From Acidimicrobiia bacterium (GTDB lineage Bacteria; Actinomycetota; Acidimicrobiia; IMCC26256; PALSA-555): DNA of 64,000 nucleotides. Location of the stretch: assembly GCA_035763745.1 (NCBI GenBank), contig DASUAO010000014.1:1252-65251 (forward strand). Reading direction: 5' to 3'. A program made the translations under genes and the position numbers. Shown piece by piece: positions 601 to 51,588 of this stretch. The number at the start of each line of letters is the position of its first letter. Position 1 is the stretch's first letter. The notes under the pieces are model-generated. The model saw nothing but the letters and a program-made list of their open reading frames with translations, ran no database searches and was not told the DNA's origin.

Positions 601-2115
601 ATGCTCGGTGCAACCCTACGCGAGGCCGCCCGGCGGTTCCGCGACCAGCCTGCGTACGTGGCGCCGGACGGGTGGCCGCTCTCGTACGCGTTCCTCGATC
701 GGGCGAGCGACGAGGTGGCGACCGGGCTCACCCGGCGCGGGGTCGGGCTCGGCGACGTCGTCGCCCTGGTCCTCCCGCCGGGACCCGAGTACCTGGTCGC
801 GTACCTGGCCGCGGCGAAGCTCGGTGCCGTGACCACGGGGGTCAACGACCGCCTCACCGACGTCGAGCGGGCCACGGTGCTCGAGCTCGCGGGTCCCCGG
901 GTCGTCATCGGCTCCGAGGGAGCGACCTCGACCCCGCATGAGACCGTCGAGGTGCGCCGCGCCGACACCCCCGACGACGTCCTGCGCGACCTCCGAATCG
1001 ACGGCGCTCCCGTCCCGCTCGAACCGGACCCCGAACGCCCGGTCGCCATCGTCTTCACCTCGGGGACGACGGGCACCCCGAAGGGCGCGCTCTACTGCAA
1101 CCGGCAGCTGTCGTTCATCACCAGCGTCGACGTCGGCACGACGTGGGGCGCCGGCGGCCGCGGTTTCACCGGGACCTCCTTCGCGCACCTCGGCTTCATG
1201 ACCAAGCTCCCGGGCAACCTCCAACGCGGAGGCACGAGCTTCATCATGGAGCGTTGGCGCGCCCACGACGCCCTCGCGCTCCTCGAGCGCGAGGGGATGC
1301 AGACGGTCGCCGGGGTGCCCACGCAGCTGGCCCTCATGCTGCGCGATCCCGACTTCGACGCGTTCGACCTCTCCAGCGTCGGGTTCATCGTCGTCGGCGG
1401 CGGACCGGTCACTCCCGGGCTCGCGCAGGAGGCACGGGCGCGCTTCGACGCCAAGCTCGCCACGCGCTACTCGTGCACCGAGGCCGGCATCGGGCTCGGC
1501 ACCGGCTTCGACGACCCCGAAGAGGACGCAGTCATCAGCGTCGGGCGCCCACACGCCGCGGTCGAGCTCGGCGTGCTCGACGACGCCGACGAGCCCGTGA
1601 CCCCGGGCGACATCGGTGCCGTGTGCCTGCGCTCCCCCGCGGTGATGTCCGGGTACTGGCGCGCCCCCGACGCGACGCGCGCCGCGTTCACCGCCGACGG
1701 CTTCGTCCGGACCGGCGACGTCGGATGGGTCGACGACCAGGGTCGGCTCCGGCTCGTGGGCCGGAGCAAGGAGATGTACGTCCGCGGCGGCTACAACGTG
1801 TACCCGGTCGAGGTCGAGGCAGTGCTCTCGACCCATCCCGACGTCGCACATGTCGCGGTCGTCCCGGCACCCGATCCCGTCATGGGCGAGGTGGGCGTCG
1901 CGTTCGTGGTCGCCCGCGACCCGTCGGCGGCCCCGACCGTCGACGGGCTCCGGGACTTCGGACGCGATCGGCTCGCGGCGTACAAGCTGCCCGAAGGCCT
2001 ACGGACCGTCGAGGCGCTCCCGCTCACCGCCGGGGAGAAGGTGGACCGCCGGGTGCTCCGCGAGATGCTCGACGCCGAGACCCCGGGCGACCGGCCTGAC
2101 GAGCACGTCAGGTAG
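601..2115 (+). CDS. AMP-dependent acyl-CoA synthetase/ligase
   Basis: Internal ATG of track ORF 229..2115 (MLGATLREAARRFRDQPAYV...). AMP-binding motifs FTSGTTGTPKG and GDVGWVDDQGRLRLVGRSKEMYVRGGYNVYP; C-terminal YKLPEGLRTVEALPLTAGEKVDRR. Confidence 0.9.
   Translation: MLGATLREAARRFRDQPAYVAPDGWPLSYAFLDRASDEVATGLTRRGVGLGDVVALVLPPGPEYLVAYLAAAKLGAVTTGVNDRLTDVERATVLELAGPRVVIGSEGATSTPHETVEVRRADTPDDVLRDLRIDGAPVPLEPDPERPVAIVFTSGTTGTPKGALYCNRQLSFITSVDVGTTWGAGGRGFTGTSFAHLGFMTKLPGNLQRGGTSFIMERWRAHDALALLEREGMQTVAGVPTQLALMLRDPDFDAFDLSSVGFIVVGGGPVTPGLAQEARARFDAKLATRYSCTEAGIGLGTGFDDPEEDAVISVGRPHAAVELGVLDDADEPVTPGDIGAVCLRSPAVMSGYWRAPDATRAAFTADGFVRTGDVGWVDDQGRLRLVGRSKEMYVRGGYNVYPVEVEAVLSTHPDVAHVAVVPAPDPVMGEVGVAFVVARDPSAAPTVDGLRDFGRDRLAAYKLPEGLRTVEALPLTAGEKVDRRVLREMLDAETPGDRPDEHVR
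2096..2111. promoter_or_regulatory. 16-bp palindrome CTGACGagcaCGTCAG (candidate operator)
   Basis: Perfect inverted repeat overlapping the last codons of the ligase 601..2115, 16 nt upstream of the ACAD start at 2127. Confidence 0.55.
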
Positions 2116-2126
2116 GTTGCCCGTCG

Positions 2127-3284
2127 ATGGAGCTCGAGTTCACGGCCGACCAGGACGACCTGCGCGACGGGGTGCGCGCGATGCTCGCGCGCGAGTGCCC
2201 GCCCGAGCTCGTGCGGAAGGTCGTCGAGGACGCCTTCCGCGGCGGCACCGAGGGACGCACGGGCACCGCAGGTCTCTGGCAGCAGATGGTCGATCTCGGC
2301 TGGCCGGCCCTGACCGTGCCCGAGGCCCACGGTGGCCTCGGGCTGGGCGCGGTCGAGCTCTCCGTGGTCCTCGAGGAGATGGGGCGGGTCGTGGCTCCGG
2401 GGCCGTTCGTCCCCACCACCACCCAGCTCGTCCCGGCGATCGCCGAAGCCGGTGACGATGCGCAGCAGGACCGGTTCCTCGGCGCGGTGGCGGCGGGGTC
2501 GTGCACCGGGGCTCTGGCGGTCGCCGAGCCCGGGAGCGGCCTCGACCCGGCGTCGGTCCGCACGACCGCGAGCCCGGGCGGTGATGGCGCCTGGGTGCTC
2601 TCCGGCGAGAAGGCCGCCGTGCTCGGCGCACCGGAGGTCGACGAGATCGTGGTGGTGGCGCGCACGCCCGGATCGGACGGCGACGACGGCGTGGGCGCGT
2701 TCGTGGTCCCGTCGGCCGACCTCACGATCGAGCCGATGGCGGCGCTCGACCCCACCCGCGGGCTCGCCACGCTCCGGCTCGACGGCGTGACCGTCGCCGC
2801 CGATCGGTGCCTCGGTGCCCCCGGCCCGGAGACCGCGACCGCACTGCGACGCGCGATCGACGTCGCGGTGATGGGACTCGCGCTCGAGGCGCTCGGCACC
2901 TGCCAGACCATCTTCGACGTGACGCTCGAGTACGCGAAGCAGCGCGAGCAGTTCGGGGTCCCGATCGGCTCGTTCCAGGCCATCAAGCACAAGCTCGCCA
3001 ACATGAGCGTCGCGCTCGAGCGGGCCCGCGCCACCGGCTACTTCGCCGCGCTCACCATCGCCGAGGACGACCCCGAGCGGTGGCTCGCGACGTCGACGGC
3101 CAAGGCCGCCGCGAACGACTGCCAACGCCTCCTGGCGTCAGAGGGCATCCAGATCCACGGCGGCATCGGCTACACGTGGGAGCACGACATGCACCTGTAT
3201 GTGCGCCGGGTGAAGACCGACGCCGCGCTGTTCGGCACGACCGCCGAGCACCACGCGCGGATCGCCGACCTCCTGGAGGTCTGA
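2127..3284 (+). CDS. acyl-CoA dehydrogenase family protein (beta-type, no obvious catalytic Glu motif)
   Basis: 385-aa track ORF. ACAD signatures QREQFGVPIGSFQAIKHKLANM and IQIHGGIGYTWEHDMHLY. The C-terminus lacks the (I/Y)EGT/GGT-SEIQ motif seen in the catalytic ACADs of this window. Confidence 0.85.
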   Translation: MELEFTADQDDLRDGVRAMLARECPPELVRKVVEDAFRGGTEGRTGTAGLWQQMVDLGWPALTVPEAHGGLGLGAVELSVVLEEMGRVVAPGPFVPTTTQLVPAIAEAGDDAQQDRFLGAVAAGSCTGALAVAEPGSGLDPASVRTTASPGGDGAWVLSGEKAAVLGAPEVDEIVVVARTPGSDGDDGVGAFVVPSADLTIEPMAALDPTRGLATLRLDGVTVAADRCLGAPGPETATALRRAIDVAVMGLALEALGTCQTIFDVTLEYAKQREQFGVPIGSFQAIKHKLANMSVALERARATGYFAALTIAEDDPERWLATSTAKAAANDCQRLLASEGIQIHGGIGYTWEHDMHLYVRRVKTDAALFGTTAEHHARIADLLEV

Positions 3285-3286
3285 AC

Positions 3287-3317
3287 GGTCGGGTGCCGGC
3301 GAGTCCGGCGCCCGACC
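3287..3317. terminator. 13-bp stem hairpin between convergent genes
   Basis: GGTCGGGTGCCGG-cgagt-CCGGCGCCCGACC (one G.U pair). Starts 3 nt after the ACAD stop and ends 13 nt before the convergent membrane-protein stop. Confidence 0.5.
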
Positions 3318-3329
3318 CGACCGAGGGCC

Positions 3330-4169: not shown

Positions 4170-4661
4170 CTACAGGTCGGGCGCGCTCGGGTCCGCGGTC
4201 GTCCCCTCGCGCAGCGGATCCCGCCGGGGGACGACCATCGAGGAGAAGTCGGCAACCGCGATCACGTTGTCGTCGGGGTCGAGCACCCGCACCTCGACGA
4301 CGATGAGCATCCGCCCGGCCCGCACGAGCCGGGCATCCGCGCGCACGACGTCCCCCTTGGGACGACCGAGGTAGCGCACGTGCAGGTCGGCGGTCACGAG
4401 GCTCTGCGTGGTCGCGTCGAAGCCCGAGGCGCGGGCCGCGCACGAGCCCGCGGCCACGTCGACCAGCGTCGCGATCGCGCCCCCGTGGAGGTTCCCCGAC
4501 CCGTTGAACGCCTCCTGGCGGACCGGCATCTCGACGACCACGTGTCCGGGCGTGTCGTCGACGAAGCGCAGCCCCAGCAGCTTGTGGAGCGGCATCTCGA
4601 AGAACGTCGTGCGGAGGTACTCCTCCATCGCACTCCGATCAGGCGCACCGGCGTCGGTCAT
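4170..4661 (-). CDS. PaaI-family hotdog thioesterase
   Basis: M89 of track ORF 4170..4925: MTDAGAPDRSAMEEYLRTTFFEMPLHKLLGLRFV...NGSGNLHGGAIATLVDVAAG...VVRADARLVRAGRMLIVVEVRV. The start overlaps the upstream gene stop by 4 nt. Confidence 0.85.
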   Translation of the reverse strand: MTDAGAPDRSAMEEYLRTTFFEMPLHKLLGLRFVDDTPGHVVVEMPVRQEAFNGSGNLHGGAIATLVDVAAGSCAARASGFDATTQSLVTADLHVRYLGRPKGDVVRADARLVRAGRMLIVVEVRVLDPDDNVIAVADFSSMVVPRRDPLREGTTADPSAPDL

Positions 4662-5224: not shown

Positions 5225-5289
5225 CGGCCAGGCACCGTACCCCCTTGCCCGCGCTCCCCCGGCCGAGATCGACCCCCCGGAGGTACCCC

Positions 5290-11357: not shown

Positions 11358-12539
11358 TCAACGCTTCGGCACCTCGATCACGGTCGCCGAGCCCATGCCG
11401 CCACCGGCACACATCGTGGCGACCCCGATCCCACCGCCGCGCCGACGCAGCTCGTGCGCGAGCGTCGTGATCATGCGAGCACCGGTTGCCGCGACCGGGT
11501 GCCCGAGTGAGCAACCGCTGCCGCTCACGTTCACGATCTCGTGGTCGAACCCGAGGATCCGACTCGAAGCGACGGCCATCGAGGCGAACGCCTCGTTGAT
11601 CTCGACCAGGTCGACGTCGTCGACGGCCAGACCGGCGCGCGCGAGCGCCTTCGGGACCGCGACCGTCGGCCCCAGCCCGGTGTCGGCCGGAGGCACACCC
11701 GCGGAGGCCCAGGACCGGACGATCGCGAGCGGCTCGTGGCCGTGCTGCTCTGCGTACTCGGCGTCGCAGAGCACCATCGCACACGCGCCGTCGTTGAGGC
11801 CCGAGGAGTTCCCGGCCGTGATCGAGAACCCGGGGATCTCAGGGTGCAGCGGCGGGAGCGCGGCGAGCTTCTCGAGGCTCGAGTCGCGGCGGGGATGCTC
11901 GTCGGTGTCGAAGATCCGCGTCTCACCCTTCCCGACCGGCACCTCCACGGCGAAGATCTCCTCGGCCAGACGCCCGTCGTCGATCGCGGCGATCGCGCGC
12001 CGGTGCGACTCGTACGCCCAGTAGTCCATGTCCTCGCGGCTCACGTCGGCCTTCCGCGCGGTGTTCCAGCCGACAGTGATCGACATGTCCATGGTCGGGG
12101 CGTCGGGCGTCTCGGGGTGGCTCGGCGACAGCCACTGCTGCACGCCGCTGTAGGCACCGGGGAGCTTCTTGAGCACCTGCGGCGACTGGCTGATCGACTC
12201 CGTCCCGCCCGCGATGACGACGCGGTCCATGCCCGCACGGATGCTGCCGGCCGCGGTCTGCACCGCCGCCATGCCCGACGCGCAGTGACGGTTGTGCGCG
12301 ACCCCCGGCACCTCGATGAGGCCGAGCTCGATCGCGACGTACCGGGCGATGTCGCCACCACCCTGGAGCACCTCGCCGAGCACCAGGTCGTCGACGTCCT
12401 CGGTCGCGACGCCCGATCGCTTCAGGGCGGACTCGACGGCCAGACGGCCCAGGTCGAAGGCGCTGAACCCGACGAGGGAGCCGCGCCGGGCGGTCCCGAT
12501 CGGCGTGCGCGCCGCGGCGACGATGACGGCTTCACCCAT
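11358..12539 (-). CDS. acetyl-CoA C-acyltransferase (thiolase)
   Basis: M24 of track ORF 11358..12608: MGEAVIVAAARTPIGTARRGSL...NRHCASGMAAV (active-site Cys)...NEAFASMAV...GSGCSLGHPVAATGARM...CAGGGMGSATVIE. Confidence 0.92.
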   Translation of the reverse strand: MGEAVIVAAARTPIGTARRGSLVGFSAFDLGRLAVESALKRSGVATEDVDDLVLGEVLQGGGDIARYVAIELGLIEVPGVAHNRHCASGMAAVQTAAGSIRAGMDRVVIAGGTESISQSPQVLKKLPGAYSGVQQWLSPSHPETPDAPTMDMSITVGWNTARKADVSREDMDYWAYESHRRAIAAIDDGRLAEEIFAVEVPVGKGETRIFDTDEHPRRDSSLEKLAALPPLHPEIPGFSITAGNSSGLNDGACAMVLCDAEYAEQHGHEPLAIVRSWASAGVPPADTGLGPTVAVPKALARAGLAVDDVDLVEINEAFASMAVASSRILGFDHEIVNVSGSGCSLGHPVAATGARMITTLAHELRRRGGGIGVATMCAGGGMGSATVIEVPKR

Positions 12540-12617
12540 GACGTGGGCTCCTCGCTCGGAGTGGGTTCGATCCGCAGAGCGGCGTTCGACGGCGCTCCAC
12601 GACGGCACGGAGCCTAT

Positions 12618-12633
12618 CTGACACTGCTGTCAG
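12618..12633. promoter_or_regulatory. 16-bp palindrome CTGACActgcTGTCAG (candidate operator)
   Basis: Perfect inverted repeat in the divergent thiolase/ligase intergenic region, 32 nt upstream of the ligase GTG at 12665. Member of the recurrent CTGACR-N4-YGTCAG family. Confidence 0.6.
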
Positions 12634-12664
12634 GTCGATCGGTGCTCGCGCTAGGTTCGCACCC

Positions 12665-14182
12665 GTGCCGGAGTGGGGGGACCTCCAGGAGGACCAGCTG
12701 CGCTTCATGGCGCGGACCATCCCCGACGAGCTCGCGTACCGGAACCTCGACGCGGGAACCTCGCTCACCTTCGCCGAGTGGGACGCCGAGTCCAACCGCC
12801 TCGCCCGCGGGCTCATCGGGCTCGGCGTCGAGCAGGGCGATCGCGTGTCGATCTTCCTGCCCGCCGAGGAGGTGCTCCGCTGGATCGTCGCGTACGCCGC
12901 GGTGCACAAGGCGGGCGCGGTCGCGGTCCCGACGAACACGCGGCTGTCGAACCCCGAGCTGGTGTCGATCCTCGGGCACGCCGAGATCGTGGTGTCGCTC
13001 ACCTGCGAGGACCTGCTACCGACCGCGATCGCGATCCAGCCCGAGATCCCGAGCTTCCGCACGATCGTGAGCAGCGGCACGTGGGACGAGGTCCTCGACG
13101 ACGACGCATCCGACATCCAGGTGCCGGTCGCGCTCACGGATCTGGCCGATGTCATGTACACGTCGGGCACGACCGGGCTCCCGAAGGGCATCGCCGTCCG
13201 CCACGACAACGCCGCGATGATCCCCAACCACGAGCCCCTCTGGACGGGCGGTGGCTGGCTCCACGGCGCGCCGTTGTTCACGTTCGCCGGGATCGCGTTC
13301 ATCTACAACCCCATGAAGATGGGCCTCACCGCGCTCTACCACCCGAAGTTCGACGCCGGCCGGTGGCTCCGCTACGTCGAGACGGAACGCCCGACCCACA
13401 CCCTGCTCGTCCCCGCGTTCGCCGAGCTGATCGTCGCCCACCCCGACTTCGCGACCGCCGACCTGTCGAGCCTCGTGCAGGTGTCGATCGGGAGCGCACC
13501 CATCGCGCCGAAGACCCACCAGATCCTCATCGAGCGACTCCCCCACGCGAACGTCGGAAACTCGTTCGGGATGAGCGAGGCCGGCCCGGCGTACATCGTG
13601 ATGCCACCCGAGGAGATCCCGAAGCGCATCGGCTCCGTGGGCAAGCCCATCGGTCCCATGGAGATCCGCGTCGTCGACGACCACGACGACGACCTGCCCG
13701 CTCGCGAGGTCGGCGAGCTGCTCATGCGCATGCAGGGCAAGCAGCGCGAGTACTACAAGGACGACGCCGCCACCGCGAGCACCTGGACGCCGGACGGCTG
13801 GCTGCGCACCGGCGACCTCGCGTACCTCGACGAGGACGGCTACCTCTACATCTGCGGTCGCAAGAAGGACATGATCATCCGCGGCGGGAACAACATCTAC
13901 GCCACCGACGTCGAGGCGGTGCTGCTCGAGCATCCCGACGTCCAGGAAGCGGCTGTCGTCGGCGTCCCGCACACCGTCCTGGGCGAGGACGTCGGCGCGT
14001 GGGTCGTGTGCAAGCCCGGCACGAGCCTCGACGCCGCGACGCTCGACGCCTTCTGTGCCGAACGGCTCGCCGACTACAAGCGCCCCCGGGTCGTGCACTT
14101 CACCGACGAGCTGCCCCGCAACGCGGTCGGCAAGGTGCTCAAGCACCGCCTGCGCGACGACGCGACTACATTCCGGACCTGA
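12665..14182 (+). CDS. AMP-dependent acyl-CoA synthetase/ligase
   Basis: 505-aa track ORF (GTG start). YTSGTTGLPKG, GDLAYLDEDGYLYICGRKKDMIIRGGNNIY, YKRPRVVHFTDELPRNAVGKVLK. Confidence 0.9.
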   Translation: MPEWGDLQEDQLRFMARTIPDELAYRNLDAGTSLTFAEWDAESNRLARGLIGLGVEQGDRVSIFLPAEEVLRWIVAYAAVHKAGAVAVPTNTRLSNPELVSILGHAEIVVSLTCEDLLPTAIAIQPEIPSFRTIVSSGTWDEVLDDDASDIQVPVALTDLADVMYTSGTTGLPKGIAVRHDNAAMIPNHEPLWTGGGWLHGAPLFTFAGIAFIYNPMKMGLTALYHPKFDAGRWLRYVETERPTHTLLVPAFAELIVAHPDFATADLSSLVQVSIGSAPIAPKTHQILIERLPHANVGNSFGMSEAGPAYIVMPPEEIPKRIGSVGKPIGPMEIRVVDDHDDDLPAREVGELLMRMQGKQREYYKDDAATASTWTPDGWLRTGDLAYLDEDGYLYICGRKKDMIIRGGNNIYATDVEAVLLEHPDVQEAAVVGVPHTVLGEDVGAWVVCKPGTSLDAATLDAFCAERLADYKRPRVVHFTDELPRNAVGKVLKHRLRDDATTFRT

Positions 14183-14194
14183 CGTCACCGTCAG
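14179..14194. promoter_or_regulatory. 16-bp palindrome CTGACGtcacCGTCAG (candidate operator)
   Basis: Perfect inverted repeat overlapping the TGA of the ligase 12665..14182, 32 nt upstream of the GTG at 14226. Confidence 0.55.
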
Positions 14195-14225
14195 CAACCC
14201 CGCGACGACGAAGGAGCACGCGCCC

Positions 14226-14681
14226 GTGGCACTCACCGAGCTCAAGGGTCAGAGCACCGGCACCCAGAGGGTCGTGATCGAGCGCGGCCCGGTGAAGGTG
14301 TTCGCCGAGGCACTCCTGGACGACGACCCCGCGTATCGGGGCGACACGGCACCGGTCCCCCCCACCTTCCCGTTCGTCATGTCCTACTGGGGGTCGATGG
14401 GCGAGGGCGGCGCGGCCGGGCTGCCGATCGACAAGCTCCGCGGCCCGGGTCGGGCGATCCTCCACGGGGAGCAGGCCTTCGAGTACTACCGCTGGCCGAA
14501 GGTCGGTGACGTGCTCGAGGGCACGGGCACGATCAGCGACGTCTACGAGAAGGAGAAGTCGAGCGGCGGCAAGCTCGAGTTCTACGTCACCGAGACGGAC
14601 TGGAAGGACGCCACGACCGGGGAGCCGGTGTGCAAGGCGATCTTCACCCTCGCGATCAACGTCCGCCCGCCGAAGGAGTAG
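14226..14681 (+). CDS. MaoC/FAS1-like hotdog dehydratase N-terminal-type protein
   Basis: In-frame GTG of track ORF 14055..14681, with GAAGGAG 11 nt upstream. VALTELKGQSTGTQRVVIERGPVKVFAEALLDDDPAYRG...PPTFPFVMSYWG...ILHGEQAFEYYRWPKVGDVLEG. Confidence 0.7.
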   Translation: MALTELKGQSTGTQRVVIERGPVKVFAEALLDDDPAYRGDTAPVPPTFPFVMSYWGSMGEGGAAGLPIDKLRGPGRAILHGEQAFEYYRWPKVGDVLEGTGTISDVYEKEKSSGGKLEFYVTETDWKDATTGEPVCKAIFTLAINVRPPKE

Positions 14682-18486: not shown

Positions 18487-19281
18487 TCACGGCAGGCCCG
18501 GATGCAGGGTGTACGTGCCGTCCTCGCCGCGCGTCCAACCGCCCGACGCCCAGTTGCCGCCGTCGACATGGATCGTCGTTCCCGTCACGAAGCGGCTCAT
18601 GTCGCCAGCGAGGTACATGGCCGCGCCGGCGACGTCGTCGACGTGGCCCGCGACCGGGAGCGGCGTGTGCACGCCCATCTCTTCGCCGATGCCGGGTGTC
18701 GGGATCACGTCGGGAGCGATGCAGTTCACGCGGACCAGCCGCGGTCCGAGCTCGAGCGCGAGGCTCTTGGTCAGGCTCGCGACGGCAGCCTTCATCGCCG
18801 AGTACACCGCGAAGCCGGGGCCGGCCCGGTGGGCCTCGATCGACGTGACGTTGACGATCGACCCGCCCCGGTCGGGGAAGTGCGGTGCCGCACTCCGCAC
18901 GAAGTTCGTGACGCTGGTGAAGTTCTCGCGGATGAGGGAGTCCTGACCCTTGGCGTTGACGTCGAGGAACGCCGAGTGGAACCCGCCGCCCGCGTTGTTC
19001 ACGAGCACGTCGATCGCACCGAGCTCGGCGACGGTCCTCGCCACGAACCCGTCGACCGCCTCGTCGTCGCGCACGTCGAGCTCGGCGGCCACGACCCGCC
19101 GTCCCATCGCCTCGATGGCTTCCGCCGTGGCGTCGAGGTTGGGGACGTCACGGTCGCAGATCGCCACGTGGGCACCGAAGCGGGCCGCGGCGACGGCGAT
19201 CGCCTCCCCGATCCCGACGGCCGCGCCGGTGACGACGACGACTCGGTCGGTGAGGAGCGCGCTCGACGGATCCAGGGCCAC
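18487..19281 (-). CDS. SDR family oxidoreductase
   Basis: In-frame GTG (V24) of track ORF 18487..19350; the ATG at 19350 would overlap the divergent gene start. VVVVTGAAVGIGEAIA, NNAGG, and YSAMKAAV (Y-x3-K). Confidence 0.85.
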   Translation of the reverse strand: MALDPSSALLTDRVVVVTGAAVGIGEAIAVAAARFGAHVAICDRDVPNLDATAEAIEAMGRRVVAAELDVRDDEAVDGFVARTVAELGAIDVLVNNAGGGFHSAFLDVNAKGQDSLIRENFTSVTNFVRSAAPHFPDRGGSIVNVTSIEAHRAGPGFAVYSAMKAAVASLTKSLALELGPRLVRVNCIAPDVIPTPGIGEEMGVHTPLPVAGHVDDVAGAAMYLAGDMSRFVTGTTIHVDGGNWASGGWTRGEDGTYTLHPGLP

Positions 19282-19312
19282 GGCGGCGCAGGCTAGTCCC
19301 GGGGTCCGTTCC

Positions 19313-19328
19313 CTGACAGGAGCGTCAG
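19313..19328. promoter_or_regulatory. 16-bp palindrome CTGACAggagCGTCAG (candidate operator)
   Basis: Perfect inverted repeat centred in the 67-bp divergent region between the two SDR genes (starts 19281 and 19349). Confidence 0.6.
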
Positions 19329-24345: not shown

Positions 24346-25899
24346 GTGCGGATCGCCGCGCTCGACCTCGGCACGAACTCCTTTCATCTCCTCGTCGCCG
24401 ACGTGCACCCCGACGGGCACTTCGAGACGATCGCGACCGAGAAGGCCATGCTCCGCCTCGGCGACGTGGTCGCCCGCCACGGCCGGATCACCGACAGGGC
24501 GGCCGATGCCGCGGTGGCCGCGGTGCGCCGGTTCGTCCTCATGGCCGAGGCGGCCGGGGCCACCGAGATCCAGGCGTGCGCCACGAGCGCGATCCGATCT
24601 GCCACCAACGGCGATGCTGTCGTCGACCGGATCGACGCCGAAGCGGGCGTCGCGGTCGAGGTCATCAGCGGCCACCGGGAGGCAGAGCTGATCTTCGGGG
24701 CGATCCGCGCCGGCGTGCTGCTCGAGCCGGCGCCGGCACTGTGCTTCGACGTCGGCGGCGGGAGCGTCGAGATCATGGTGGGAGACGCGGGCGGGCTCCA
24801 GTGGGCCACGAGCGAGCACCTCGGCGTCGGGCGCCTGACCGCCGACTTCGTCGCCAGCGACCCGATCTCCAAGCACGACCGCAACCGGCTGCGGGCGCAC
24901 CTCGTCGAGGTGCTGGAGCCGATCGCGGAGACCGTCGCCCGCTTCACACCGAAGCGCTTCGTCGGGAGCAGCGGCACGCTCGGCGACCTCGCGCACATGG
25001 TCGCCGCCCGTCGCAAGGAGGAGGTCCCGGTCTCGCTGAACCAGCTGAGCTTCACGCGCGACGAGTTCGAGCCGCTGCACAAGCTGATCCTCGGATCGAC
25101 CGCGGCCGAACGACTCCGGTTCGCGGGTCTCGAGGCCCGACGGGTCGACCTGATCGCCGCCGGCTCGCTGTTCCTCTCGACCGCGATGGAGCTGTTCGGG
25201 ATCGAGGAGATGGTGGTGAGCGAGTGGGCGCTCCGCGAGGGCATCGTCCTCGATGCGATCAAGCGCCGCGACCCGACGGAGTGGTCCGACGACCCCCGCG
25301 CCATCCGACGCGCGTCCGTCGAGGGACTGGCTCGGCGGTGCAACGTCCCCGAGACGCATTCGCGACGCGTCGCCGACCTCGCGGTCGAGCTGTTCGACGC
25401 AACCCAGGAGCTGCACGGGATGTCGAGCGACGACCGCGAGCTGCTCGAGTACGGCGCGCTGCTCCACGACATCGGCGAGCACGTCGCGTCCCACGGCCAC
25501 CACAAGCACGGGGCCTACCTGATCCGCTACGGGCAGCTGCGCGGCTTCACCCCGGAAGATGTCCAGCTCCTCGCCGGCCTGGCTCGGTGGCATCGGCGCG
25601 GGGAGCCCAAGGCCACCGAGGAGCTCCCGCTCGTCGACGTCGGCCGGCTGCGCCCGCTCACTGCGCTGCTCCGGCTGGCCGACGGACTCGACCGCGGTCG
25701 CAGCGGGGCCGTCGAGCACGTCGACGTGCGGATCGGCCCGTCACTCGTCGTGCTCCGGGTGCGGGCCGCCAGCGACTGCGAACTCGAGCTCTGGGGTGCA
25801 CGACGCAAGCGTGGATTGTTCGAGAAGGTGTTCGAACGCGACCTCGAGCTCACGGTCGCGCCGCTCGCGAAGGACGCCGACGCCTACGGGGTGACCTGA
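24346..25899 (+). CDS. Ppx/GppA family phosphatase with C-terminal HD-like domain
   Basis: 517-aa track ORF (GTG start). MRIAALDLGTNSFHLLVADV, FDVGGGSVEIMVG, later GALLHDIGEHVASHGHHKHGAYLI. Confidence 0.88.
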   Translation: MRIAALDLGTNSFHLLVADVHPDGHFETIATEKAMLRLGDVVARHGRITDRAADAAVAAVRRFVLMAEAAGATEIQACATSAIRSATNGDAVVDRIDAEAGVAVEVISGHREAELIFGAIRAGVLLEPAPALCFDVGGGSVEIMVGDAGGLQWATSEHLGVGRLTADFVASDPISKHDRNRLRAHLVEVLEPIAETVARFTPKRFVGSSGTLGDLAHMVAARRKEEVPVSLNQLSFTRDEFEPLHKLILGSTAAERLRFAGLEARRVDLIAAGSLFLSTAMELFGIEEMVVSEWALREGIVLDAIKRRDPTEWSDDPRAIRRASVEGLARRCNVPETHSRRVADLAVELFDATQELHGMSSDDRELLEYGALLHDIGEHVASHGHHKHGAYLIRYGQLRGFTPEDVQLLAGLARWHRRGEPKATEELPLVDVGRLRPLTALLRLADGLDRGRSGAVEHVDVRIGPSLVVLRVRAASDCELELWGARRKRGLFEKVFERDLELTVAPLAKDADAYGVT

Positions 25900-26525
25900 C
25901 CGGTCACGGTCTGGTGGAGGATCCGTGCGGTCGTCTCCACGAGGTCGTCGCGGTCGACCCCGAGTGGCTCGAGTTCGGCATGGAACGCGGCCATGCGCTC
26001 CATCATCGAGGCGAGCGCGGCAGCCGCCGCCATCGGCGCCATGCCGGCACCGACGCGTCCCTCGCGCTGTGCGGCCGCGACCTTGTCGGCGAGCCCTTCG
26101 CGCAGCGGGCGCAACGACTCGTTGCGGACGGCTCGGAATCGGTGGTCCCCTTCTTGCGCCGCGAGGTTGCGCGTCCGCAGCACTGCGCGGTGCGAGTCCC
26201 AGTACTCGATGAACGCGTCGACGAGTCGGCGGGCGACGGCGAGGCCGTCGGGCCCGCTCCAGTCGCGCGCGAGCAGGTCCCCGAGTGGCGCCAGGTCCTC
26301 GCCCACGTCTTCGGCCAGGGCCAGGACGGCCTCGTCCACGTCGCGGAAGTACTGATAGAAGGTCGCAGGCGAGGTCCCGACGTCGCGGGCGATGTCGACG
26401 ACGCGCAGTTCGCGCACCCCGGCGTCGTCGAGCAGCCGCGTGGTCGCCTCGAGGAGACGGCTGCGCGTGAGTGCGCCCCGCTTCCCCAGCGCGCGACCGT
26501 CGAGGGCGACGCCGTCAGTCGACAC
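25884..26525 (-). CDS. TetR/AcrR family transcriptional regulator
   Basis: In-frame GTG (V26) of track ORF 25884..26600, 11 nt after the upstream gene stop. TRSRLLEATTRLLDDAGVRELRVVDIARDVGTSPATFYQYFRDVDEAVLAL. Confidence 0.85.
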   Translation of the reverse strand: MSTDGVALDGRALGKRGALTRSRLLEATTRLLDDAGVRELRVVDIARDVGTSPATFYQYFRDVDEAVLALAEDVGEDLAPLGDLLARDWSGPDGLAVARRLVDAFIEYWDSHRAVLRTRNLAAQEGDHRFRAVRNESLRPLREGLADKVAAAQREGRVGAGMAPMAAAAALASMMERMAAFHAELEPLGVDRDDLVETTARILHQTVTGQVTP

Positions 26526-33047: not shown

Positions 33048-33063
33048 CTGGCGGAAGTGTCAG
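33048..33063. promoter_or_regulatory. near-palindrome CTGGCGgaagTGTCAG (one mismatch to CTGACR-N4-YGTCAG)
   Basis: 23 nt upstream of the amidohydrolase ATG at 33086. Confidence 0.35.
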
Positions 33064-37323: not shown

Positions 37324-38931
37324 TCAGCGTCGGTCGAAGGTCACGCCGGCGCGTTCGCGGTCCCACGTCGTCGCGGTCACGCCGTCGTCGCGCAGCTCGT
37401 ACTTGAGGACCCGACCGACCGGGTTGCGCGGCAGGTCGGACCGGAACTCGACGAAGCGGGGTACTGCGAAGTACGGAACGTGGTCGATCGCCCATCGACA
37501 GAGCGCTTCCTCCGACAGCGTGGACCCTTCCACCAGGACTGCCGTCACCTTCACCTCGTCCTCGCCCAGCTCGCTCGGCACCGAGTGCACCACGACGTCG
37601 GCGATGTCCTCGTGACCGTGGAAGATGCGTTCCATCTCGAAGCTGGAGATGTTCTCACCGCGCCGGCGGAGGTAGTCCTTCTTGCGGTCGACGAAGTACA
37701 GGAAGCCGTCGTCGTCGAGACGCCCCAGGTCGCCGGTGTGGAACCAGAGGTTGCCCAGGACCGAGAGCGTGTCCTCGGGGCGGCCCCAGTAGCCGGTGAA
37801 CATGACGTTCGGGCGCGTCGGCCGGCACACGATCTCCCCGATCTCGCCGGCGGCGACGGGGATGTCGCGCTCGTCGACGAGGCGGACCTCGAACTCGTGG
37901 TCGTTGGGCTTGCCTGCTGCGCCCGGTGGGTTCACCTCGCCCGCCGGGAGCATCGAGATCAGCGAGGCCTCGGTGAGGCCGTAGCCCCCACTGAAGGTCG
38001 CGCAACCGAAGCGGTCCCGCCAGAGCGCATCGGTCGCCGGCGGCATCGGTGCCGCCGCGCACACCCGGAGCCGGTGCCCGGCCTGGTCCGGGTGATCCTC
38101 GGCCTCGGCGATCAGGATCGCCAGCGAGCCGAGGAGCGACACCATGGTCGCCCCGGTTCGCTTGACCTCGGGCCAGAAGCGCGAGACCGAGAACCGACGC
38201 ACGATCGCCGCGCTCCCACCGTTGATCAGCGTCCCGACGACACAGATCGAGATCGCGTTGAAGTGGAACAGCGGCAGCGGCGTCAGGACGACGTCGTCGG
38301 GACGGCGCTCCCAGGCGCGGGAGATCTGCTCGGCGAGGGCCACGATGTAGTGCTGCGGGAGCATGCAGCCCTTCGAGGGCCCGGTGGTGCCCGCGGTGTA
38401 GATGAAGCACGCCAGGTCGTCGGGGCGGACGTCGATGCCCTCGACCGCCCGCTCGGACGCCGACGCGAGCACACCGTCCCACGCGTGCGTCGCGACCGCC
38501 GCGATCTCGGTATCGGGCTCGCCGGTCACGATGCACGACGTGAGGTCGGGCATGTCGGAGCCGGCGATCGCGGCGACGCGCGAGGCGAAGTCGCCCTGGA
38601 CGACGATCACCTTCGACCCCGAGTCGGCGAGCTGGTGGCGGAGGAACTCGCCCTTGTACGCGGTGTTGATCGGGACCTGGATGGCCCCCAGCTTCAGCGC
38701 GGCGAAGAACGTGATCACCTGGGCCGGCGAGTTCTCGAGCAGCGTCGCCACGCGATCCCCGCGCCCGACGCCCAGGTCGGTGAGGACATGGGCGAGGCGA
38801 TTGCTCGCCGCGTCGACCTCCCGGGCCGAGAACGCGTCGCCCTCGAAGTCGAGGTACGTGCCGTCGGGATCGGTCCCCAGGCGGTGCGCGAGCGCATCGA
38901 GCACGGTCGCGTCGTTGCCGAGGGCTCCCAT
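37324..38931 (-). CDS. AMP-dependent acyl-CoA synthetase/ligase
   Basis: 535-aa track ORF. YTAGTTGPSKG, GYGLTE, GDLGRLDDDGFLYFVDRKKDYLRRRGENIS and VPRFVEFRSDLPRNPVGRVLK. Confidence 0.9.
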   Translation of the reverse strand: MGALGNDATVLDALAHRLGTDPDGTYLDFEGDAFSAREVDAASNRLAHVLTDLGVGRGDRVATLLENSPAQVITFFAALKLGAIQVPINTAYKGEFLRHQLADSGSKVIVVQGDFASRVAAIAGSDMPDLTSCIVTGEPDTEIAAVATHAWDGVLASASERAVEGIDVRPDDLACFIYTAGTTGPSKGCMLPQHYIVALAEQISRAWERRPDDVVLTPLPLFHFNAISICVVGTLINGGSAAIVRRFSVSRFWPEVKRTGATMVSLLGSLAILIAEAEDHPDQAGHRLRVCAAAPMPPATDALWRDRFGCATFSGGYGLTEASLISMLPAGEVNPPGAAGKPNDHEFEVRLVDERDIPVAAGEIGEIVCRPTRPNVMFTGYWGRPEDTLSVLGNLWFHTGDLGRLDDDGFLYFVDRKKDYLRRRGENISSFEMERIFHGHEDIADVVVHSVPSELGEDEVKVTAVLVEGSTLSEEALCRWAIDHVPYFAVPRFVEFRSDLPRNPVGRVLKYELRDDGVTATTWDRERAGVTFDRR

Positions 38932-38937: not shown

Positions 38938-38953
38938 CTGACACTAGCGTCAG
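38938..38953. promoter_or_regulatory. 16-bp palindrome CTGACActagCGTCAG (candidate operator)
   Basis: Perfect inverted repeat 7 nt upstream of the ligase ATG (38931, minus strand), in the divergent region shared with the OsmC gene (39024). Confidence 0.6.
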
Positions 38954-39023: not shown

Positions 39024-39554
39024 ATGGGAGCCGGGGCCGTGCACCGCTACGAGACGTGGTGCGCCTGGGAGGGCTCGACCGGCGCCGGCTACGAGTCCTA
39101 CGACCGCGCCCACACGGCGGCGGCCCCCCCGGCACTCGGTGCGCTCTCGATGAGCGCGGACCCCGCGTTCCGGGGCGACCCGGCGGGGGTGAACCCCGAG
39201 CAGCTGCTCGTCCTCGCGGCGTCGTCGTGCCAGCTCCTCAGCTTCCTGGCGGTCGCGGCGCGAGCCCGGATCGACGTGGTCGCGTACTCCGATCGCGCCG
39301 AGGCCGTGATGCCCGAGGACGACCTGCCGGTCCGCATCACGTCGATCACCCTCCGCCCGGAGATCCGCGTGCGTGGGCCCGTCGCCGAGGACCGCCTGCG
39401 TCATCTCTGCGAGGTCGCGCACCGTGAGTGCTTCATCTCGAACAGCCTCACGACCGAGGTGCGGGTGGAACCGTCGTTCACCTACGACCCGATGGCCGGA
39501 TCGAGTGAGGCCGGATCGAGTGAGGCCGGATCGAGTGAGGCCGGGTCCGGCTAG
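39024..39554 (+). CDS. OsmC/Ohr family protein with C-terminal GSSEA repeat tail
   Basis: 176-aa track ORF. HRYETWCAWEGSTGAGYESY...GVNPEQLLVLAASSCQLLSFL...CEVAHRECFISNSL, then (AGSSE)x3. Confidence 0.85.
   Translation: MGAGAVHRYETWCAWEGSTGAGYESYDRAHTAAAPPALGALSMSADPAFRGDPAGVNPEQLLVLAASSCQLLSFLAVAARARIDVVAYSDRAEAVMPEDDLPVRITSITLRPEIRVRGPVAEDRLRHLCEVAHRECFISNSLTTEVRVEPSFTYDPMAGSSEAGSSEAGSSEAGSG
39495..39539 (+). repeat. 3 x 15-bp perfect in-frame tandem repeat (gccggatcgagtgag)
   Basis: Three identical units plus a degenerate fourth (gccgggtccggc), encoding AGSSE-AGSSE-AGSSE-AGSG at the OsmC C-terminus. Confidence 0.9.
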
Positions 39555-48344: not shown

Positions 48345-48345
48345 G

Positions 48346-49104: not shown

Positions 49105-49129
49105 GCACACCCCCAGCGACGCCGAAACG

Positions 49130-50683: not shown

Positions 50684-50732
50684 CGGAGTGCTCCTGTTCT
50701 CGGGTCGACGTCTCGGTGGTGACAGCGGTCGC

Positions 50733-51512
50733 TCAGCCGCAGGTGATGCCACCGTCCATGCTCACGATGCTCCCGATCATGTACCGGCCGTCCTCGGAGG
50801 CGACGAACGCGATGAGCCCGGCGACCTCCTCGGGCTCGGAGTACCCGATCGGCGAGGTGATGCCGGCGAACTCCTCGGGCTTGGCGCCCTCGGGGAACCC
50901 CCAGGTCGAGATCATCGACGTCTTCATCCCACCGGGAGCGACGGCGTTCACGCGCACGCCCTTCGCCCGGTACTCGACCCCCAATGCCCGGGTGAGGTTG
51001 ACGACTCCACCCTTCGACGCGCAGTAGGCGGCCGAGTAGGGCTGGCCCATGAGTCCAGCGTTCGATGCGACGTTCACGATCACGCCGCCCTCGTCACCCC
51101 GACGGATCTTCCCGGCCCCGGCAGCCCGTTCGAGCAGGTGCGGCAGCACCGCGCGGCACATGAAGAACGTGCCACTGAGGTTCACGCCGATGATGCGGTT
51201 CCAGCTCTCCGGTGACTCTTCCTCGCTCTTGACGAACTTCCCGATGCCGGCGCAGTTCACGAGCACCGACGGCGCGCCGAGCCGCTCGACGACCGACGCC
51301 ACGGCCGCCTCGACGGACCCGAAGTCGCTCACGTCGACGGCGTGCGCGCTCGCGGCGTCGCCGATGCCGGTGGCGGTCTCGGCGGCGGCGGCCTCGTCGA
51401 GGTCGAGCACGGCCACTCGGGCGCCCTCCTCGGCGAGGCGGCGCGCCGTCGCCCGGCCGAGGCCGGAGCCCGCGCCCGTCACGATCGCGACCTGGTCGGT
51501 GAAGCGCGGCAT
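50733..51512 (-). CDS. SDR family oxidoreductase (3-oxoacyl reductase-like)
   Basis: 259-aa track ORF. AIVTGAGSGLGRA, LVNCAGI, YCASKGGVVNLTR and SIVSMDGG. Confidence 0.88.
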   Translation of the reverse strand: MPRFTDQVAIVTGAGSGLGRATARRLAEEGARVAVLDLDEAAAAETATGIGDAASAHAVDVSDFGSVEAAVASVVERLGAPSVLVNCAGIGKFVKSEEESPESWNRIIGVNLSGTFFMCRAVLPHLLERAAGAGKIRRGDEGGVIVNVASNAGLMGQPYSAAYCASKGGVVNLTRALGVEYRAKGVRVNAVAPGGMKTSMISTWGFPEGAKPEEFAGITSPIGYSEPEEVAGLIAFVASEDGRYMIGSIVSMDGGITCG

Positions 51513-51573
51513 TCGTACCCCTCGTGGTGGCTGTGGTCGGCAGCGGTGGGACGCCGACGCTCGACCGGCGAAT

Positions 51574-51588
51574 CTAACTGGCCGTCAG
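51574..51588. promoter_or_regulatory. degenerate copy of the palindrome (CTaACtggcCGTCAG, spacer one nt short)
   Basis: In the divergent SDR/ligase region, about 50 nt upstream of the ligase GTG at 51639. The right half CGTCAG is perfect. The left half has one mismatch and the spacing is N5 between CTAAC and GTCAG instead of N6. Confidence 0.3.

What the first reader, a model, noticed from the sequence alone, without database searches (positions are those of the whole stretch)
2096..51588. Recurrent 16-bp palindrome CTGACR-N4-YGTCAG at gene boundaries of the acyl-CoA ligase operons
I found five perfect copies by eye: 2096 CTGACGagcaCGTCAG, 12618 CTGACActgcTGTCAG, 14179 CTGACGtcacCGTCAG, 19313 CTGACAggagCGTCAG and 38938 CTGACActagCGTCAG. 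There is also a one-mismatch copy (33048 CTGGCGgaagTGTCAG) and a degenerate copy with a shortened spacer (51574). Ten fixed and two 2-fold positions give roughly 0.01-0.02 expected chance hits in 64 kb, so five is far above chance. None lies deep inside a gene; each sits 7-32 nt upstream of a start codon. Two overlap the stop codon of an acyl-CoA ligase and precede the next cistron (2096 before ACAD 2127; 14179 before hotdog 14226). Three sit in divergent promoter regions (thiolase/ligase, SDR/SDR, ligase/OsmC). Four of the six ligase loci are touched. The half-sites are conserved and the 4-nt spacer is not, which fits the operator of a dimeric HTH regulator. TetR genes at 1..552 and 25884..26525 are candidates, but neither has a full site in its own promoter. 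A 6-bp-stem RNA hairpin acting intercistronically is the alternative. I do not recognise the motif from any characterised regulon.
Basis: seen in the sequence. Interest (0 to 1): 0.78.

Follow-up and report, generated by a model that had tools for sequence, protein, structure and literature searches.

The report
Conserved repressor operator of Acidimicrobiia lipid-catabolism genes
The repeated 16-bp palindrome is real and is almost certainly the DNA binding site of a TetR-type repressor that switches off a set of acyl-CoA (lipid-like) breakdown operons in uncultured Acidimicrobiia: a new motif and regulon, but an ordinary kind of bacterial gene switch.

Summary
CTGACR-N4-YGTCAG occurs 5 times in the window against 0.03 expected, plus a one-mismatch copy at 33048. 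The window comes from an uncultured Acidimicrobiia bacterium. In 80 related loci (1.26 Mb) the motif occurs 86 times where about 0.6 is expected. Of the 0-1-mismatch copies, 166 of 186 are intergenic, although about 80% of the DNA is coding. Copies sit at orthologous positions: thiolase/ligase, SDR/SDR, hotdog, ACADs, amidohydrolase, P450.

The true core is the 14-bp TGACR-N4-YGTCA. The two half-sites vary independently, so there is no covariation. Most sites lie between divergent, mostly leaderless promoters. They sit 1-2, 6-12 or 17-18 nt upstream of a TANNNT -10 box, or at about +5 to +20. All of these positions fall inside the RNA polymerase footprint, and the spacing varies among orthologs. 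This is repressor-operator behaviour, not an RNA hairpin.

The best candidate regulator is the TetR at window 1..552. In 7 of 7 orthologs of a sister clade, the site sits in the TetR/ligase divergent region and again in front of the next operon. The recognition helix (TSHGTFYLYF) is invariant across both clades. The second TetR (25884..26525) carries the site in only 2 of about 11 orthologs.

This is a functional analogue of KstR/FadR but not a member of either family. It is a new member of a known kind.

The parts
2096..2111 (.). Operator copy 1 (CTGACGAGCACGTCAG). It lies inside the 3' end of ligase 571-2115 and directly abuts a -10-like box for the leaderless ACAD gene.
   Evidence: Sites also precede ACAD orthologs in L062 5315, L065 1580, L129 4458 and L160 10288.
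2113..2118 (+). -10-like box TAGGTT, which contains the ligase TAG stop. It lies 8 nt before the ACAD ATG at 2127.
   Evidence: Sequence. The general site-to-TANNNT spacing peak at 1-2 nt is shown. Inferred, with no TSS data.
12618..12633 (.). Operator copy 2 (CTGACACTGCTGTCAG), in the divergent thiolase/ligase region.
   Evidence: An orthologous site is present between the thiolase and ligase genes in L001-L013, L056, L073, L084 and L139.
12611..12616 (-). -10-like box TAGGCT for thiolase 11358-12539(-), 1 nt from the operator.
   Evidence: The same 'GTCAG-(1-3 nt)-TANNNT' arrangement occurs upstream of thiolase orthologs.
12652..12657 (+). -10-like box TAGGTT for leaderless ligase 12665-14182. 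It lies 18 nt after the operator and 7 nt before the GTG.
   Evidence: The operator-to--10 spacing varies from 10 to 21 nt among ligase orthologs.
14179..14194 (.). Operator copy 3 (CTGACGTCACCGTCAG). It contains the ligase TGA stop and lies 31 nt before the hotdog gene at 14226.
   Evidence: Of 66 hotdog orthologs, 26 carry the core. It typically lies 10-13 nt downstream of a TAGCCT/TAGGTT box and just 5' of the SD.
14167..14172 (+). -10-like box TACATT, 6 nt upstream of operator copy 3. It places the operator at about +1 to +16 of the hotdog transcript.
   Evidence: Inferred.
19313..19328 (.). Operator copy 4 (CTGACAGGAGCGTCAG), between divergent SDR genes 18487-19281(-) and 19349-20088(+).
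   Evidence: An orthologous site lies between the SDR pair in L002, L005, L007, L011, L043, L044, L062, L160 and L201.
19290..19295 (-). -10-like box TAGCCT for leaderless SDR 18487-19281(-). It lies 17 nt from the operator and 8 nt before the GTG.
33048..33063 (.). Probable weakened operator (CTGGCGGAAGTGTCAG, one core mismatch), 22 nt before amidohydrolase_2 33086-34366.
   Evidence: Orthologs carry exact sites: L201 5520, L082, L152 and L175.
38938..38953 (.). Operator copy 5 (CTGACACTAGCGTCAG). It lies 6 nt before the ATG of ligase 37324-38931(-) and is divergent from OsmC 39039-39554.
   Evidence: A -10-like TAGTGT lies inside the site on the minus strand.
1..552 (-). TetR_A, a TetR-family gene whose C-terminus is cut off by the window edge. 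It is divergent from the ligase-ACAD operon and is the best candidate for the cognate repressor.
   Evidence: Pfam TetR_N. Orthologs L086, L204-206 and L208-210 have the operator in the TetR/ligase divergent region and before the downstream ABC-transporter operon. The HTH is invariant.
562..577 (.). Half-site relic CTGACActcgTGCTCG in the TetR_A/ligase intergenic region (3 mismatches).
   Evidence: It occupies the position where sister-clade genomes have a full operator. It is weak on its own.
25884..26525 (-). TetR_B (TetR_N + TetR_C_38), the second candidate regulator or an occasional regulon member.
   Evidence: An exact site lies at the promoter of orthologs L036 (20719) and L202 (9993) only, out of about 11 orthologs inspected. 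A distant paralog, L124, also has one.
51574..51589 (.). Not supported as an operator.
   Evidence: It is not recovered at up to 3 mismatches. No orthologous evidence was obtained.

Best explanation
The palindrome is a DNA operator. Its core is TGACR-N4-YGTCA, usually CTGACR-N4-YGTCAG, with weak a-C/G-t flanks. A homodimeric TetR-family repressor binds one half-site per monomer.

The operators sit inside the RNA-polymerase footprint of the promoters they control. Three placements are seen: abutting the -10 box, over the -35/spacer region, or just downstream of the start site. In divergent regions a single operator lies between two back-to-back, mostly leaderless promoters and shuts both.

The controlled genes form a catabolic regulon for an acyl-CoA-activated lipid-like substrate. 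They include acyl-CoA ligases, a thiolase, heteromeric-type ACADs, a MaoC/hotdog hydratase, SDRs and an amidohydrolase_2. In relatives the set also includes P450, an alpha/beta hydrolase, Ltp-type thiolase + DUF35, and an ABC transporter.

The most likely repressor is the TetR encoded at window 1..552 (TetR_A). By analogy with FadR/KstR-type TetRs, an acyl-CoA or related metabolite would release it from the DNA.

Shown computationally: the motif excess, its intergenic and orthologous conservation, half-site independence, its geometry relative to -10-like boxes, and its linkage to TetR_A orthologs. Inferred: actual binding, the sign of regulation, the effector and the transcription start sites.
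For: - Excess: 5 copies against 0.03 expected in the window. There are 86 exact copies in 1.26 Mb of related Acidimicrobiia loci, where about 0.6 is expected.
- Location: 81 of 85 exact and 85 of 101 one-mismatch copies are intergenic, although about 80% of the DNA is deep coding.
- Orthologous conservation upstream of thiolase (40 sites), hotdog (25), SDR300 (21), ligases, amidohydrolase_2, the SDR pair, P450 and the fused ACAD. This holds in low-GC relatives as well (L012, L021, L086, L160).
- Tolerated variation falls at the outermost C/G and at positions 6/11.
- Positions 6 and 11 are statistically independent: G..C 35, A..C 30, A..T 13, G..T 13.
- TANNNT boxes occur only 1-22 nt from the site, with peaks at 1-2, 6-12 and 17-18 nt and none at 23-36 nt.
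- 35% of site-adjacent genes have a TANNNT box 5-9 nt before the start codon, against 8% of other genes.
- Operator-to--10 spacing differs among orthologs of the same ligase, from 10 to 21 nt.
- Hotdog promoters have the site 10-13 nt downstream of the -10 box.
- Regulator: TetR_A orthologs L086, L204 (isolate IMCC26207), L205, L206, L208, L209 and L210 all have the site in the TetR/ligase(-ACAD) divergent region. L204-206 and L208-210 also have a second site in front of the adjacent ABC-transporter operon.
- The TetR_A HTH 'RVDDIV..A.TSHGTFYLYF' is invariant although overall identity is about 48%.
- There is no Rfam family in the window.
Against: - No binding, expression or TSS data exist for this lineage. 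All promoter elements are consensus-level inferences.
- In the window's own clade (W, L057, L061, L062, L066, L079) TetR_A has no full operator in its own promoter. The window has only a half-site at 562.
- TetR_B orthologs (L036, L202) and a paralog (L124) also occasionally carry the site, so the assignment to TetR_A is not exclusive.
- The loci examined are biased towards one gene cluster. Whole-genome regulon size and intergenic enrichment genome-wide were not measured.
- My gene calls in relatives are a crude GC3 method.
Confidence: 0.8

Rival explanations
1. It is an operator, but the cognate regulator is not TetR_A. It would be TetR_B (25884..26525) or a transcription factor encoded outside the window. 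TetR_A and TetR_B would then be merely members of the regulon.
For: TetR_B is syntenic with the cluster and highly conserved: 2566 relatives at E<=1e-20, and the top 120 are at least 69% identical. Exact sites overlap its promoter in L036 and L202 and in paralog L124. In the window's clade TetR_A lacks a site in its own promoter.
Against: Only 2 of about 11 TetR_B orthologs carry the site, against 7 of 7 for the TetR_A sister clade. In that clade the sites flank TetR_A on both sides, in the classical divergent arrangement. The TetR_A recognition helix is invariant across clades, matching the invariant motif. No other DNA-binding protein was found next to any site in about 2 Mb of loci.
Confidence: 0.3
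2. The same protein-binding site acts as an activator site (class II-like, centred near -40) rather than as a repressor operator.
For: For several leaderless genes (ligase 12665, SDR 19281, amidohydrolase relatives) the site centre lies about 39-41 nt upstream of the start codon. This is close to the class II position.
Against: The position is not fixed. The same site type abuts the -10 box, sits 6-12 nt from it, or lies downstream of it. Spacing differs among orthologs of one gene, from 10 to 21 nt. Activators need fixed phasing. TetR-family proteins linked to catabolic operons are overwhelmingly repressors (established knowledge; KstR in PMC1995591).
Confidence: 0.08
3. It is an RNA element. 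A 6-bp-stem hairpin in 5' UTRs or intercistronic regions would affect translation, stability or processing.
For: The sequence can form a short hairpin. At hotdog promoters and at 14179 the site is probably transcribed, lying between the TSS and the SD.
Against: There is no covariation at the only variable 'pair': A..C non-pairs make up 30 of 91 copies, as expected for independent half-sites. Most copies lie upstream of the -10 box, and in divergent regions they lie between two outward-facing promoters, so they are not transcribed. The motif shows no strand or orientation bias. There was no Rfam hit.
Confidence: 0.03
4. It is a promoter element in its own right, for example a -35-like box (CTGACA resembles TTGACA) of a bidirectional promoter or of an alternative sigma factor.
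For: CTGACA resembles TTGACA. In the 6-12 nt class the distal half-site would lie 16-22 nt from the -10 box.
Against: The distance to the -10 box takes at least four different values, including downstream of it. The dyad symmetry and the strict conservation of both halves are not properties of sigma-factor elements.
Confidence: 0.05
5. It is a dispersed repeat (REP/MITE-like palindrome) or a restriction-modification target with no regulatory role.
For: The core contains GAC-N6-GTC, the form of some type II recognition sites (my own knowledge).
Against: Flanks and spacer are not conserved. Copies sit at orthologous positions in genomes whose proteins are only 60-70% identical. They are tied to one functional class of genes and to promoter geometry.
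Confidence: 0.01

Closest known systems
KstR (Rv3574) regulon of Mycobacterium/Rhodococcus: a TetR repressor of cholesterol/lipid catabolism (Kendall et al. 2007, PMC1995591)
   Same: It has a 14-bp palindromic operator bound by a TetR dimer. An operator lies in the divergent TetR/acyl-CoA-enzyme intergenic region and partly overlaps the -10 box. Many further copies occur in intergenic regions of fadD/fadE/fadA/ltp/hsaD-type genes. The regulator and motif are highly conserved across a whole lineage.
   Different: The motif is different: TnnAACnnGTTnnA against TGACRnnnnYGTCA. TetR_A scores 23.8 bits against the NCBIfam KstR cut-off of 280, so it is not an ortholog. The lineage is Acidimicrobiia, not Mycobacteriales. 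The substrate is unknown, and no kshA/kstD/hsaABC genes were seen. A separate KstR-like motif occurs twice elsewhere in the window.
TetR-type FadR of Bacillus (YsiA; B. halodurans FadR structure, PMC5397183) and Thermus thermophilus
   Same: These give the best PDB and NCBIfam HTH similarity for TetR_A (5gp9/3whb E about 1e-9 to 1e-10; NF053878). They are acyl-CoA-responsive repressors of beta-oxidation genes with palindromic operators at several promoters.
   Different: The similarity is confined to the HTH, at 41-51 bits against a cut-off of 200. The operator sequences differ. The effector for the Acidimicrobiia protein is unknown.
Generic TetR/operator divergent-gene paradigm (TetR, QacR, AcrR; Ahn et al. 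2012, PMC3511530; Balhana et al. 2015, PMC4482099)
   Same: The regulator is divergently transcribed from its target operon, with a palindromic operator in the short intergenic region.
   Different: Here the operator is dispersed over many operons, as in a global regulon. In the window's own clade it has been lost from the regulator's own promoter.
LuxR-type lux box (CTG-N10-CAG within a 20-bp dyad)
   Same: With its weak flanks the motif reads aCCTGAC..GTCAGGt. It therefore shares the CTG-N10-CAG frame (the resemblance is from my own knowledge).
   Different: No LuxR/GerE-type gene was found in the window or next to any site. Part of the flank signal is simply the adjacent -10 box (GTCAG-g-TA...). 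I treat this as coincidence.

Membership tests
TetR-family repressor / palindromic operator system | A short (about 14-17 bp) inverted-repeat operator with conserved half-sites and a free spacer | tested here: met
   The core is TGACR-N4-YGTCA. The spacer is unconstrained and the half-sites are independent.
TetR-family repressor / palindromic operator system | The operator overlaps the core promoter of the regulated genes | tested here: met
   TANNNT boxes lie within 1-22 nt of the sites, or the site lies at about +5 to +20. This is a consensus-level inference with no TSS data.
TetR-family repressor / palindromic operator system | A TetR gene linked to the operator, typically divergent from a target operon | tested here: met
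   Met in 7 of 7 TetR_A sister-clade loci. In the window TetR_A is divergent from ligase-ACAD but has only a half-site in that region.
TetR-family repressor / palindromic operator system | Specific protein-DNA binding, and release of the protein by a small-molecule ligand | not testable with these tools
   Needs EMSA/DAP-seq and ligand assays.
KstR regulon | The regulator is a KstR ortholog | tested here: not met
   NCBIfam NF033703: 23.8 bits against a cut-off of 280 for the TetR_A ortholog P0125. There was no hit for TetR_B.
KstR regulon | Operator TnnAACnnGTTnnA | tested here: not met
   The sites have a different sequence. The KstR pattern occurs only at 59491 and 60046, which are unrelated to these sites. 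It is absent from intergenic DNA of the 80 related loci.
TetR-type FadR (Bacillus/Thermus) | The regulator meets the FadR family model | tested here: not met
   NF053878: 41-51 bits against a cut-off of 200. PDB similarity is limited to the HTH.
Structured cis-regulatory RNA (hairpin, attenuator or Rfam family) | Covariation that maintains pairing, transcribed location, fixed orientation | tested here: not met
   The only variable 'pair' is independent, with 33% A..C. Most sites lie upstream of the -10 box. There were no Rfam hits.
REP/MITE-like dispersed palindromic repeat | Conserved sequence extending beyond the dyad; positions not orthologous | tested here: not met
   The flanks carry at most 0.5 bit of information. 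The sites are orthologous across genomes.
LuxR-type lux box | A LuxR/GerE-type regulator associated with the sites | tested here: not met
   No such domain was found in any window protein or any site-adjacent protein examined.

The most novel reading that the evidence does not exclude
A previously undescribed TetR subfamily, with recognition helix TSHGTFYLYF, acts as a class-wide master repressor in Acidimicrobiia. It would use one 14-bp operator to gate dozens of mostly leaderless, back-to-back promoters for the breakdown of a sterol-, terpenoid- or branched-lipid-like substrate. In some genomes it would also control a second conserved TetR (TetR_B), giving a two-tier cascade. The operator would migrate freely within the polymerase footprint during evolution: from the regulator's own divergent promoter to an internal promoter whose -10 box is built on the upstream gene's stop codon.
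Probability: 0.35. Interest if true: 0.5.

Novelty: new member of a known kind. Interest (0 to 1): 0.42.

Why it matters
Acidimicrobiia are abundant in soils, freshwater, the ocean and activated sludge, but they are almost entirely uncultured and their gene regulation is essentially unstudied. This motif gives a ready-made handle. A position-weight matrix can delimit a whole catabolic regulon in thousands of MAGs, link orphan enzymes (DUF2889, amidohydrolase_2, SnoaL-like, Rieske/SCP2) to one pathway, and point to the substrate through the repressor's ligand. The TetR/operator pair could also serve as a biosensor part. One relative, IMCC26207, is a named isolate genome (GCA_001025035.1) and carries the same arrangement. 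If a culture is available, the prediction is directly testable. Conceptually the result is an expected type of system, a KstR/FadR analogue, so the value lies in annotation and tooling rather than in a new principle.

Tried and rejected
- RNA hairpin. Rejected on three grounds: no covariation, location upstream of -10 boxes, and no Rfam hit.
- Intrinsic terminator. There is no T-run after the stem, and the scan found nothing at the sites.
- Sigma-70 consensus promoter scan. It found nothing in 12400-14400. The tool's E. coli-type consensus is unsuitable for this 71% GC actinobacterial DNA, so I used TANNNT boxes instead.
- KstR and KstR2 motifs. These are different sequences. KstR-like hits occur only at 59491 and 60046, and there are no KstR2 hits.
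- TetR_B as an autoregulated cognate regulator. I looked at about 11 orthologs and only L036 and L202 carry the site.
- Other transcription factors next to sites. Pfam on unlabelled neighbours gave P450, alpha/beta hydrolase, SnoaL, PHP, Rieske/SCP2 and beta-lactamase, and no further DNA-binding proteins.
- Metagenome scan with the extended pattern CCTGACRNNNNCGTCAGGT. About three quarters of the 120 hits were unrelated or chance matches in other organisms. It was useful only for L086, L124, L160 and similar loci.
- Extending the window leftwards through the ACAD protein. That exact product is not on record.
- Literature searches for the motif written in several notations. Only unrelated two-component-system repeats came up. 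No paper on Acidimicrobiia TetR operators was found.
- The symmetric variant CGGACR-N4-YGTCCG. It occurs twice against 0.52 expected, which is not significant.

Full report
**1. The observation**

The pattern CTGACRNNNNYGTCAG has exactly five matches in the window, at 2096, 12618, 14179, 19313 and 38938. Shuffles expect 0.03, and none of 100 reached five. Allowing one mismatch adds only 33048. The 14-bp core TGACRNNNNYGTCA gives the same five against 0.36 expected.

The window is about 71% G+C. I called genes by third-position GC and annotated them with Pfam. The relevant genes are:
- a TetR gene at 1-552(-), here called TetR_A, whose C-terminus is cut off by the window edge;
- ligase 571-2115 and ACAD 2127-3284;
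- thiolase 11358-12539(-);
- ligase 12665-14182, hotdog 14226-14681, glyoxalase, ligase 15162-16709 and DUF2889;
- two divergent SDRs, 18487-19281(-) and 19349-20088(+);
- a second TetR at 25884-26525(-), here called TetR_B;
- amidohydrolase_2 33086-34366;
- ligase 37324-38931(-) and OsmC 39039-39554.

Every site is 6-31 nt upstream of a start codon. One detail of the finding needs correction. The ligase upstream of site 2096 ends at the TAG at 2113-2115, not at the TGA inside the motif. Site 14179 does contain the TGA stop of its ligase. The 'degenerate copy' at 51574 has only one intact half-site, and nothing I found supports it.

**2. Conservation elsewhere**

I searched one genome per species for relatives of ligase 12665-14182. 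This returned 80 loci (1.26 Mb), essentially all uncultured Acidimicrobiia or Actinomycetota MAGs, the closest 95% identical.

- The exact 16-mer occurs 86 times in these loci, where the window's chance rate predicts about 0.6.
- 81 of 85 exact and 85 of 101 one-mismatch copies are intergenic, although about 80% of the sequence is deep coding. Two-mismatch copies revert towards the coding background.
- The tolerated mismatches are almost all at the outermost C/G (60) or at positions 6/11 (18). The real core is therefore TGACR-N4-YGTCA.
- The flanks carry only a weak a-C...G-t signal, and the 4-nt spacer is free.
- Copies sit at orthologous positions: between thiolase and ligase, between the two SDRs, and in front of the hotdog gene, the fused ACAD, the ACAD, amidohydrolase_2 genes, a second ligase, DUF2889, P450, an alpha/beta hydrolase and SnoaL-like genes.
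- Low-GC relatives (53-57% GC) keep the motif too.
- The one-mismatch site at 33048 is probably real but weakened, because orthologs of its amidohydrolase carry exact copies.

**3. DNA site or RNA hairpin**

The only variable 'base pair' of the putative stem, positions 6 and 11, shows no covariation. The counts are G..C 35, A..C 30, A..T 13 and G..T 13, exactly as expected for independent half-sites. Rfam finds nothing in the window.

The geometry is more telling. Downstream genes are frequently leaderless. A TANNNT box ends 5-9 nt before the start codon in 35% of site-adjacent genes, against 8% of other genes (sequences). Measured from the end of the site, TANNNT boxes occur at 1-2 nt, 6-12 nt and 17-18 nt, and never at 23-36 nt.

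In the window the arrangement is as follows:
- TAGGTT (2113-2118) abuts site 2096 and precedes the ACAD ATG by 8 nt.
- TAGGCT (12611-12616, minus strand) abuts site 12618 on the thiolase side.
- TAGGTT (12652-12657) lies 18 nt away on the ligase side and 7 nt before its GTG.
- TAGCCT (19290-19295, minus strand) lies 17 nt from site 19313 and 8 nt before the SDR GTG.

In divergent regions the site therefore lies between two outward-facing promoters and is not transcribed.

At hotdog promoters the order is reversed: a -10 box, then 10-13 nt, then the site, then the SD. This is seen in 26 of 66 orthologs. In the window, TACATT at 14167-14172 lies 6 nt before site 14179.

All of these positions fall within the RNA polymerase footprint. 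The spacing is not fixed even among orthologs of one gene: for the ligase it ranges from 10 to 21 nt. That pattern fits steric repression. It does not fit an activator, a sigma-factor element or an RNA structure. These promoter assignments are consensus-level inferences, because there are no TSS data.

**4. Which regulator**

The window encodes only two recognisable DNA-binding proteins, TetR_A and TetR_B. Neither has a full site at its own promoter here. There is a half-site at 562 in the TetR_A/ligase region.

*TetR_B.* The family is large and conserved and is syntenic with the cluster. An exact site overlaps its promoter in only two orthologs, L036 and L202, out of about 11 inspected. A distant paralog, L124, also has one.

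*TetR_A.* A context-free scan of metagenomes for the extended motif recovered L086, where a TetR_A ortholog (48% identity) has the site 42 nt upstream, divergent from a ligase. I then fetched contigs for six further members of that clade, including the isolate IMCC26207.
- All six (L204, L205, L206, L208, L209, L210) carry the site in the TetR_A/ligase(-ACAD) divergent region.
- All six carry a second copy, often CTGACGCTAGTGTCAG, just downstream of TetR_A and in front of a Peripla_BP_6 ABC-transporter operon.
- A more distant homolog in a different context (L207) has none.
- The helix-turn-helix 'RVDDIV..A.TSHGTFYLYF' is invariant between this clade and the window's clade, although overall identity is about 48%. 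This matches an invariant operator.
- In the window's clade the same TetR_A/ligase/ACAD synteny is kept, but the operator sits in front of the ACAD (2096; also L062 and L065). The divergent region is collapsed or retains only a half-site.

I therefore assign the motif to TetR_A with moderate confidence, about 0.6 given that it is an operator. TetR_B or an unlinked factor remains the main alternative.

**5. Comparison with known systems**

The closest functional analogue is KstR. It has a 14-bp palindrome in the kstR/fadE34 divergent region that overlaps the -10 box, with many further intergenic copies at fadD/fadE/fadA/ltp genes (PMC1995591). This system is not a member of that family.
- The motif differs: TnnAACnnGTTnnA against TGACRnnnnYGTCA.
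- TetR_A scores 23.8 bits against the NCBIfam KstR cut-off of 280.
- It scores 41-51 bits against the FadR cut-off of 200.
- PDB similarity is confined to the HTH of TetR-type FadRs and Mce3R.

Literature searches for the motif, and for Acidimicrobiia TetR operators, found nothing relevant.

The enzyme set includes pimC/pimD- or IpdE2-like ACADs, FadD3/CasG-like ligases, Ltp-type thiolase + DUF35, a hotdog hydratase, P450 and an alpha/beta hydrolase. It suggests beta-oxidation of a bulky or branched acyl-CoA. I saw no ring-opening steroid genes, so I leave the substrate open.

**6. Verdict**

The element is the operator of a TetR-type repressor that controls a conserved acyl-CoA catabolic regulon in Acidimicrobiia. 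The motif and the regulator subfamily appear to be undescribed, but the mechanism is a standard one. I rate it as a new member of a known kind, of moderate interest, mainly as an annotation and experimental handle for an abundant uncultured lineage.

Noticed in passing
window 59491-59504 and 60046-60059: Two intergenic copies of the KstR-type palindrome TnnAACnnGTTnnA: TAGAACGCGTTGCA between MFS(-) and SnoaL(+), and TAGAACCTGTTATA between SnoaL and a luciferase-like gene. Expected 0.04. This looks like a second, separate TetR-type regulon in the same window. The pattern is absent from intergenic DNA of the 80 related loci.
   Followed up: partly
window 2113-2118: The TAG stop codon of ligase 571-2115 forms the first three bases of the -10-like box TAGGTT for the next gene, a leaderless ACAD. 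This would be an internal promoter built on a stop codon.
   Followed up: partly
L061 ~4200-4215, L079, L066, L062; window ~535-552: In the window's clade the TetR_A and ligase start codons nearly overlap (...GCCATGTCT...). The N-terminal TetR_A codons 'GAA xCx TAC AAG' are conserved at the DNA level, with GAA rather than GAG despite more than 90% GC3. On the other strand this region contains a TACGCT -10-like box 6 nt before the ligase ATG. A promoter appears to be embedded in the regulator's coding sequence.
   Followed up: no
L137 670-685 and 696-711: Two exact operator copies lie 26 bp apart (start to start) in one metagenomic intergenic region. The neighbouring genes were not identified.
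   Followed up: no
L210 5807-5822 and 5831-5846: Two adjacent sites in the TetR_A/ligase divergent region. The second has a TTGACA half-site: GTTGACACAGGCGTCAGC.
   Followed up: no
window 20349-20364 and 22084-22099: A symmetric variant, CGGACR-N4-YGTCCG, occurs twice (CGGACGATGGCGTCCG and CGGACAGGTCCGTCCG). The second lies between aldolase II(-) and an unknown gene. Expected 0.52, so not significant.
   Followed up: partly
L005, L007, L014, L018, L037, L043, L073 (record titles): Several syntenic loci (most 70-72% GC; L037 is 58%), with ligases 66-79% identical to the window's, are titled 'uncultured Bifidobacteriaceae', 'Bifidobacterium breve' or 'Burkholderiales' in their records. These are probably mislabelled MAG taxonomies.
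   Followed up: no
window 2127-3284: The exact ACAD product is not on record in the 153-billion-gene index. The source genome of this window is apparently not in that collection, and the closest locus, L001, is 95% identical.
   Followed up: no
window 26537-27226(-) / 25884-26525(-); L201-L203: TetR_B is usually the last gene of a small operon, following an unknown 229-aa protein and/or a CoA-transferase (CoA_transf_3). It converges on a Ppx/GppA phosphatase gene, overlapping its 3' end by 16-35 nt in the window, L202 and L203 and lying 8 nt from it in L201. This synteny is conserved.
   Followed up: partly
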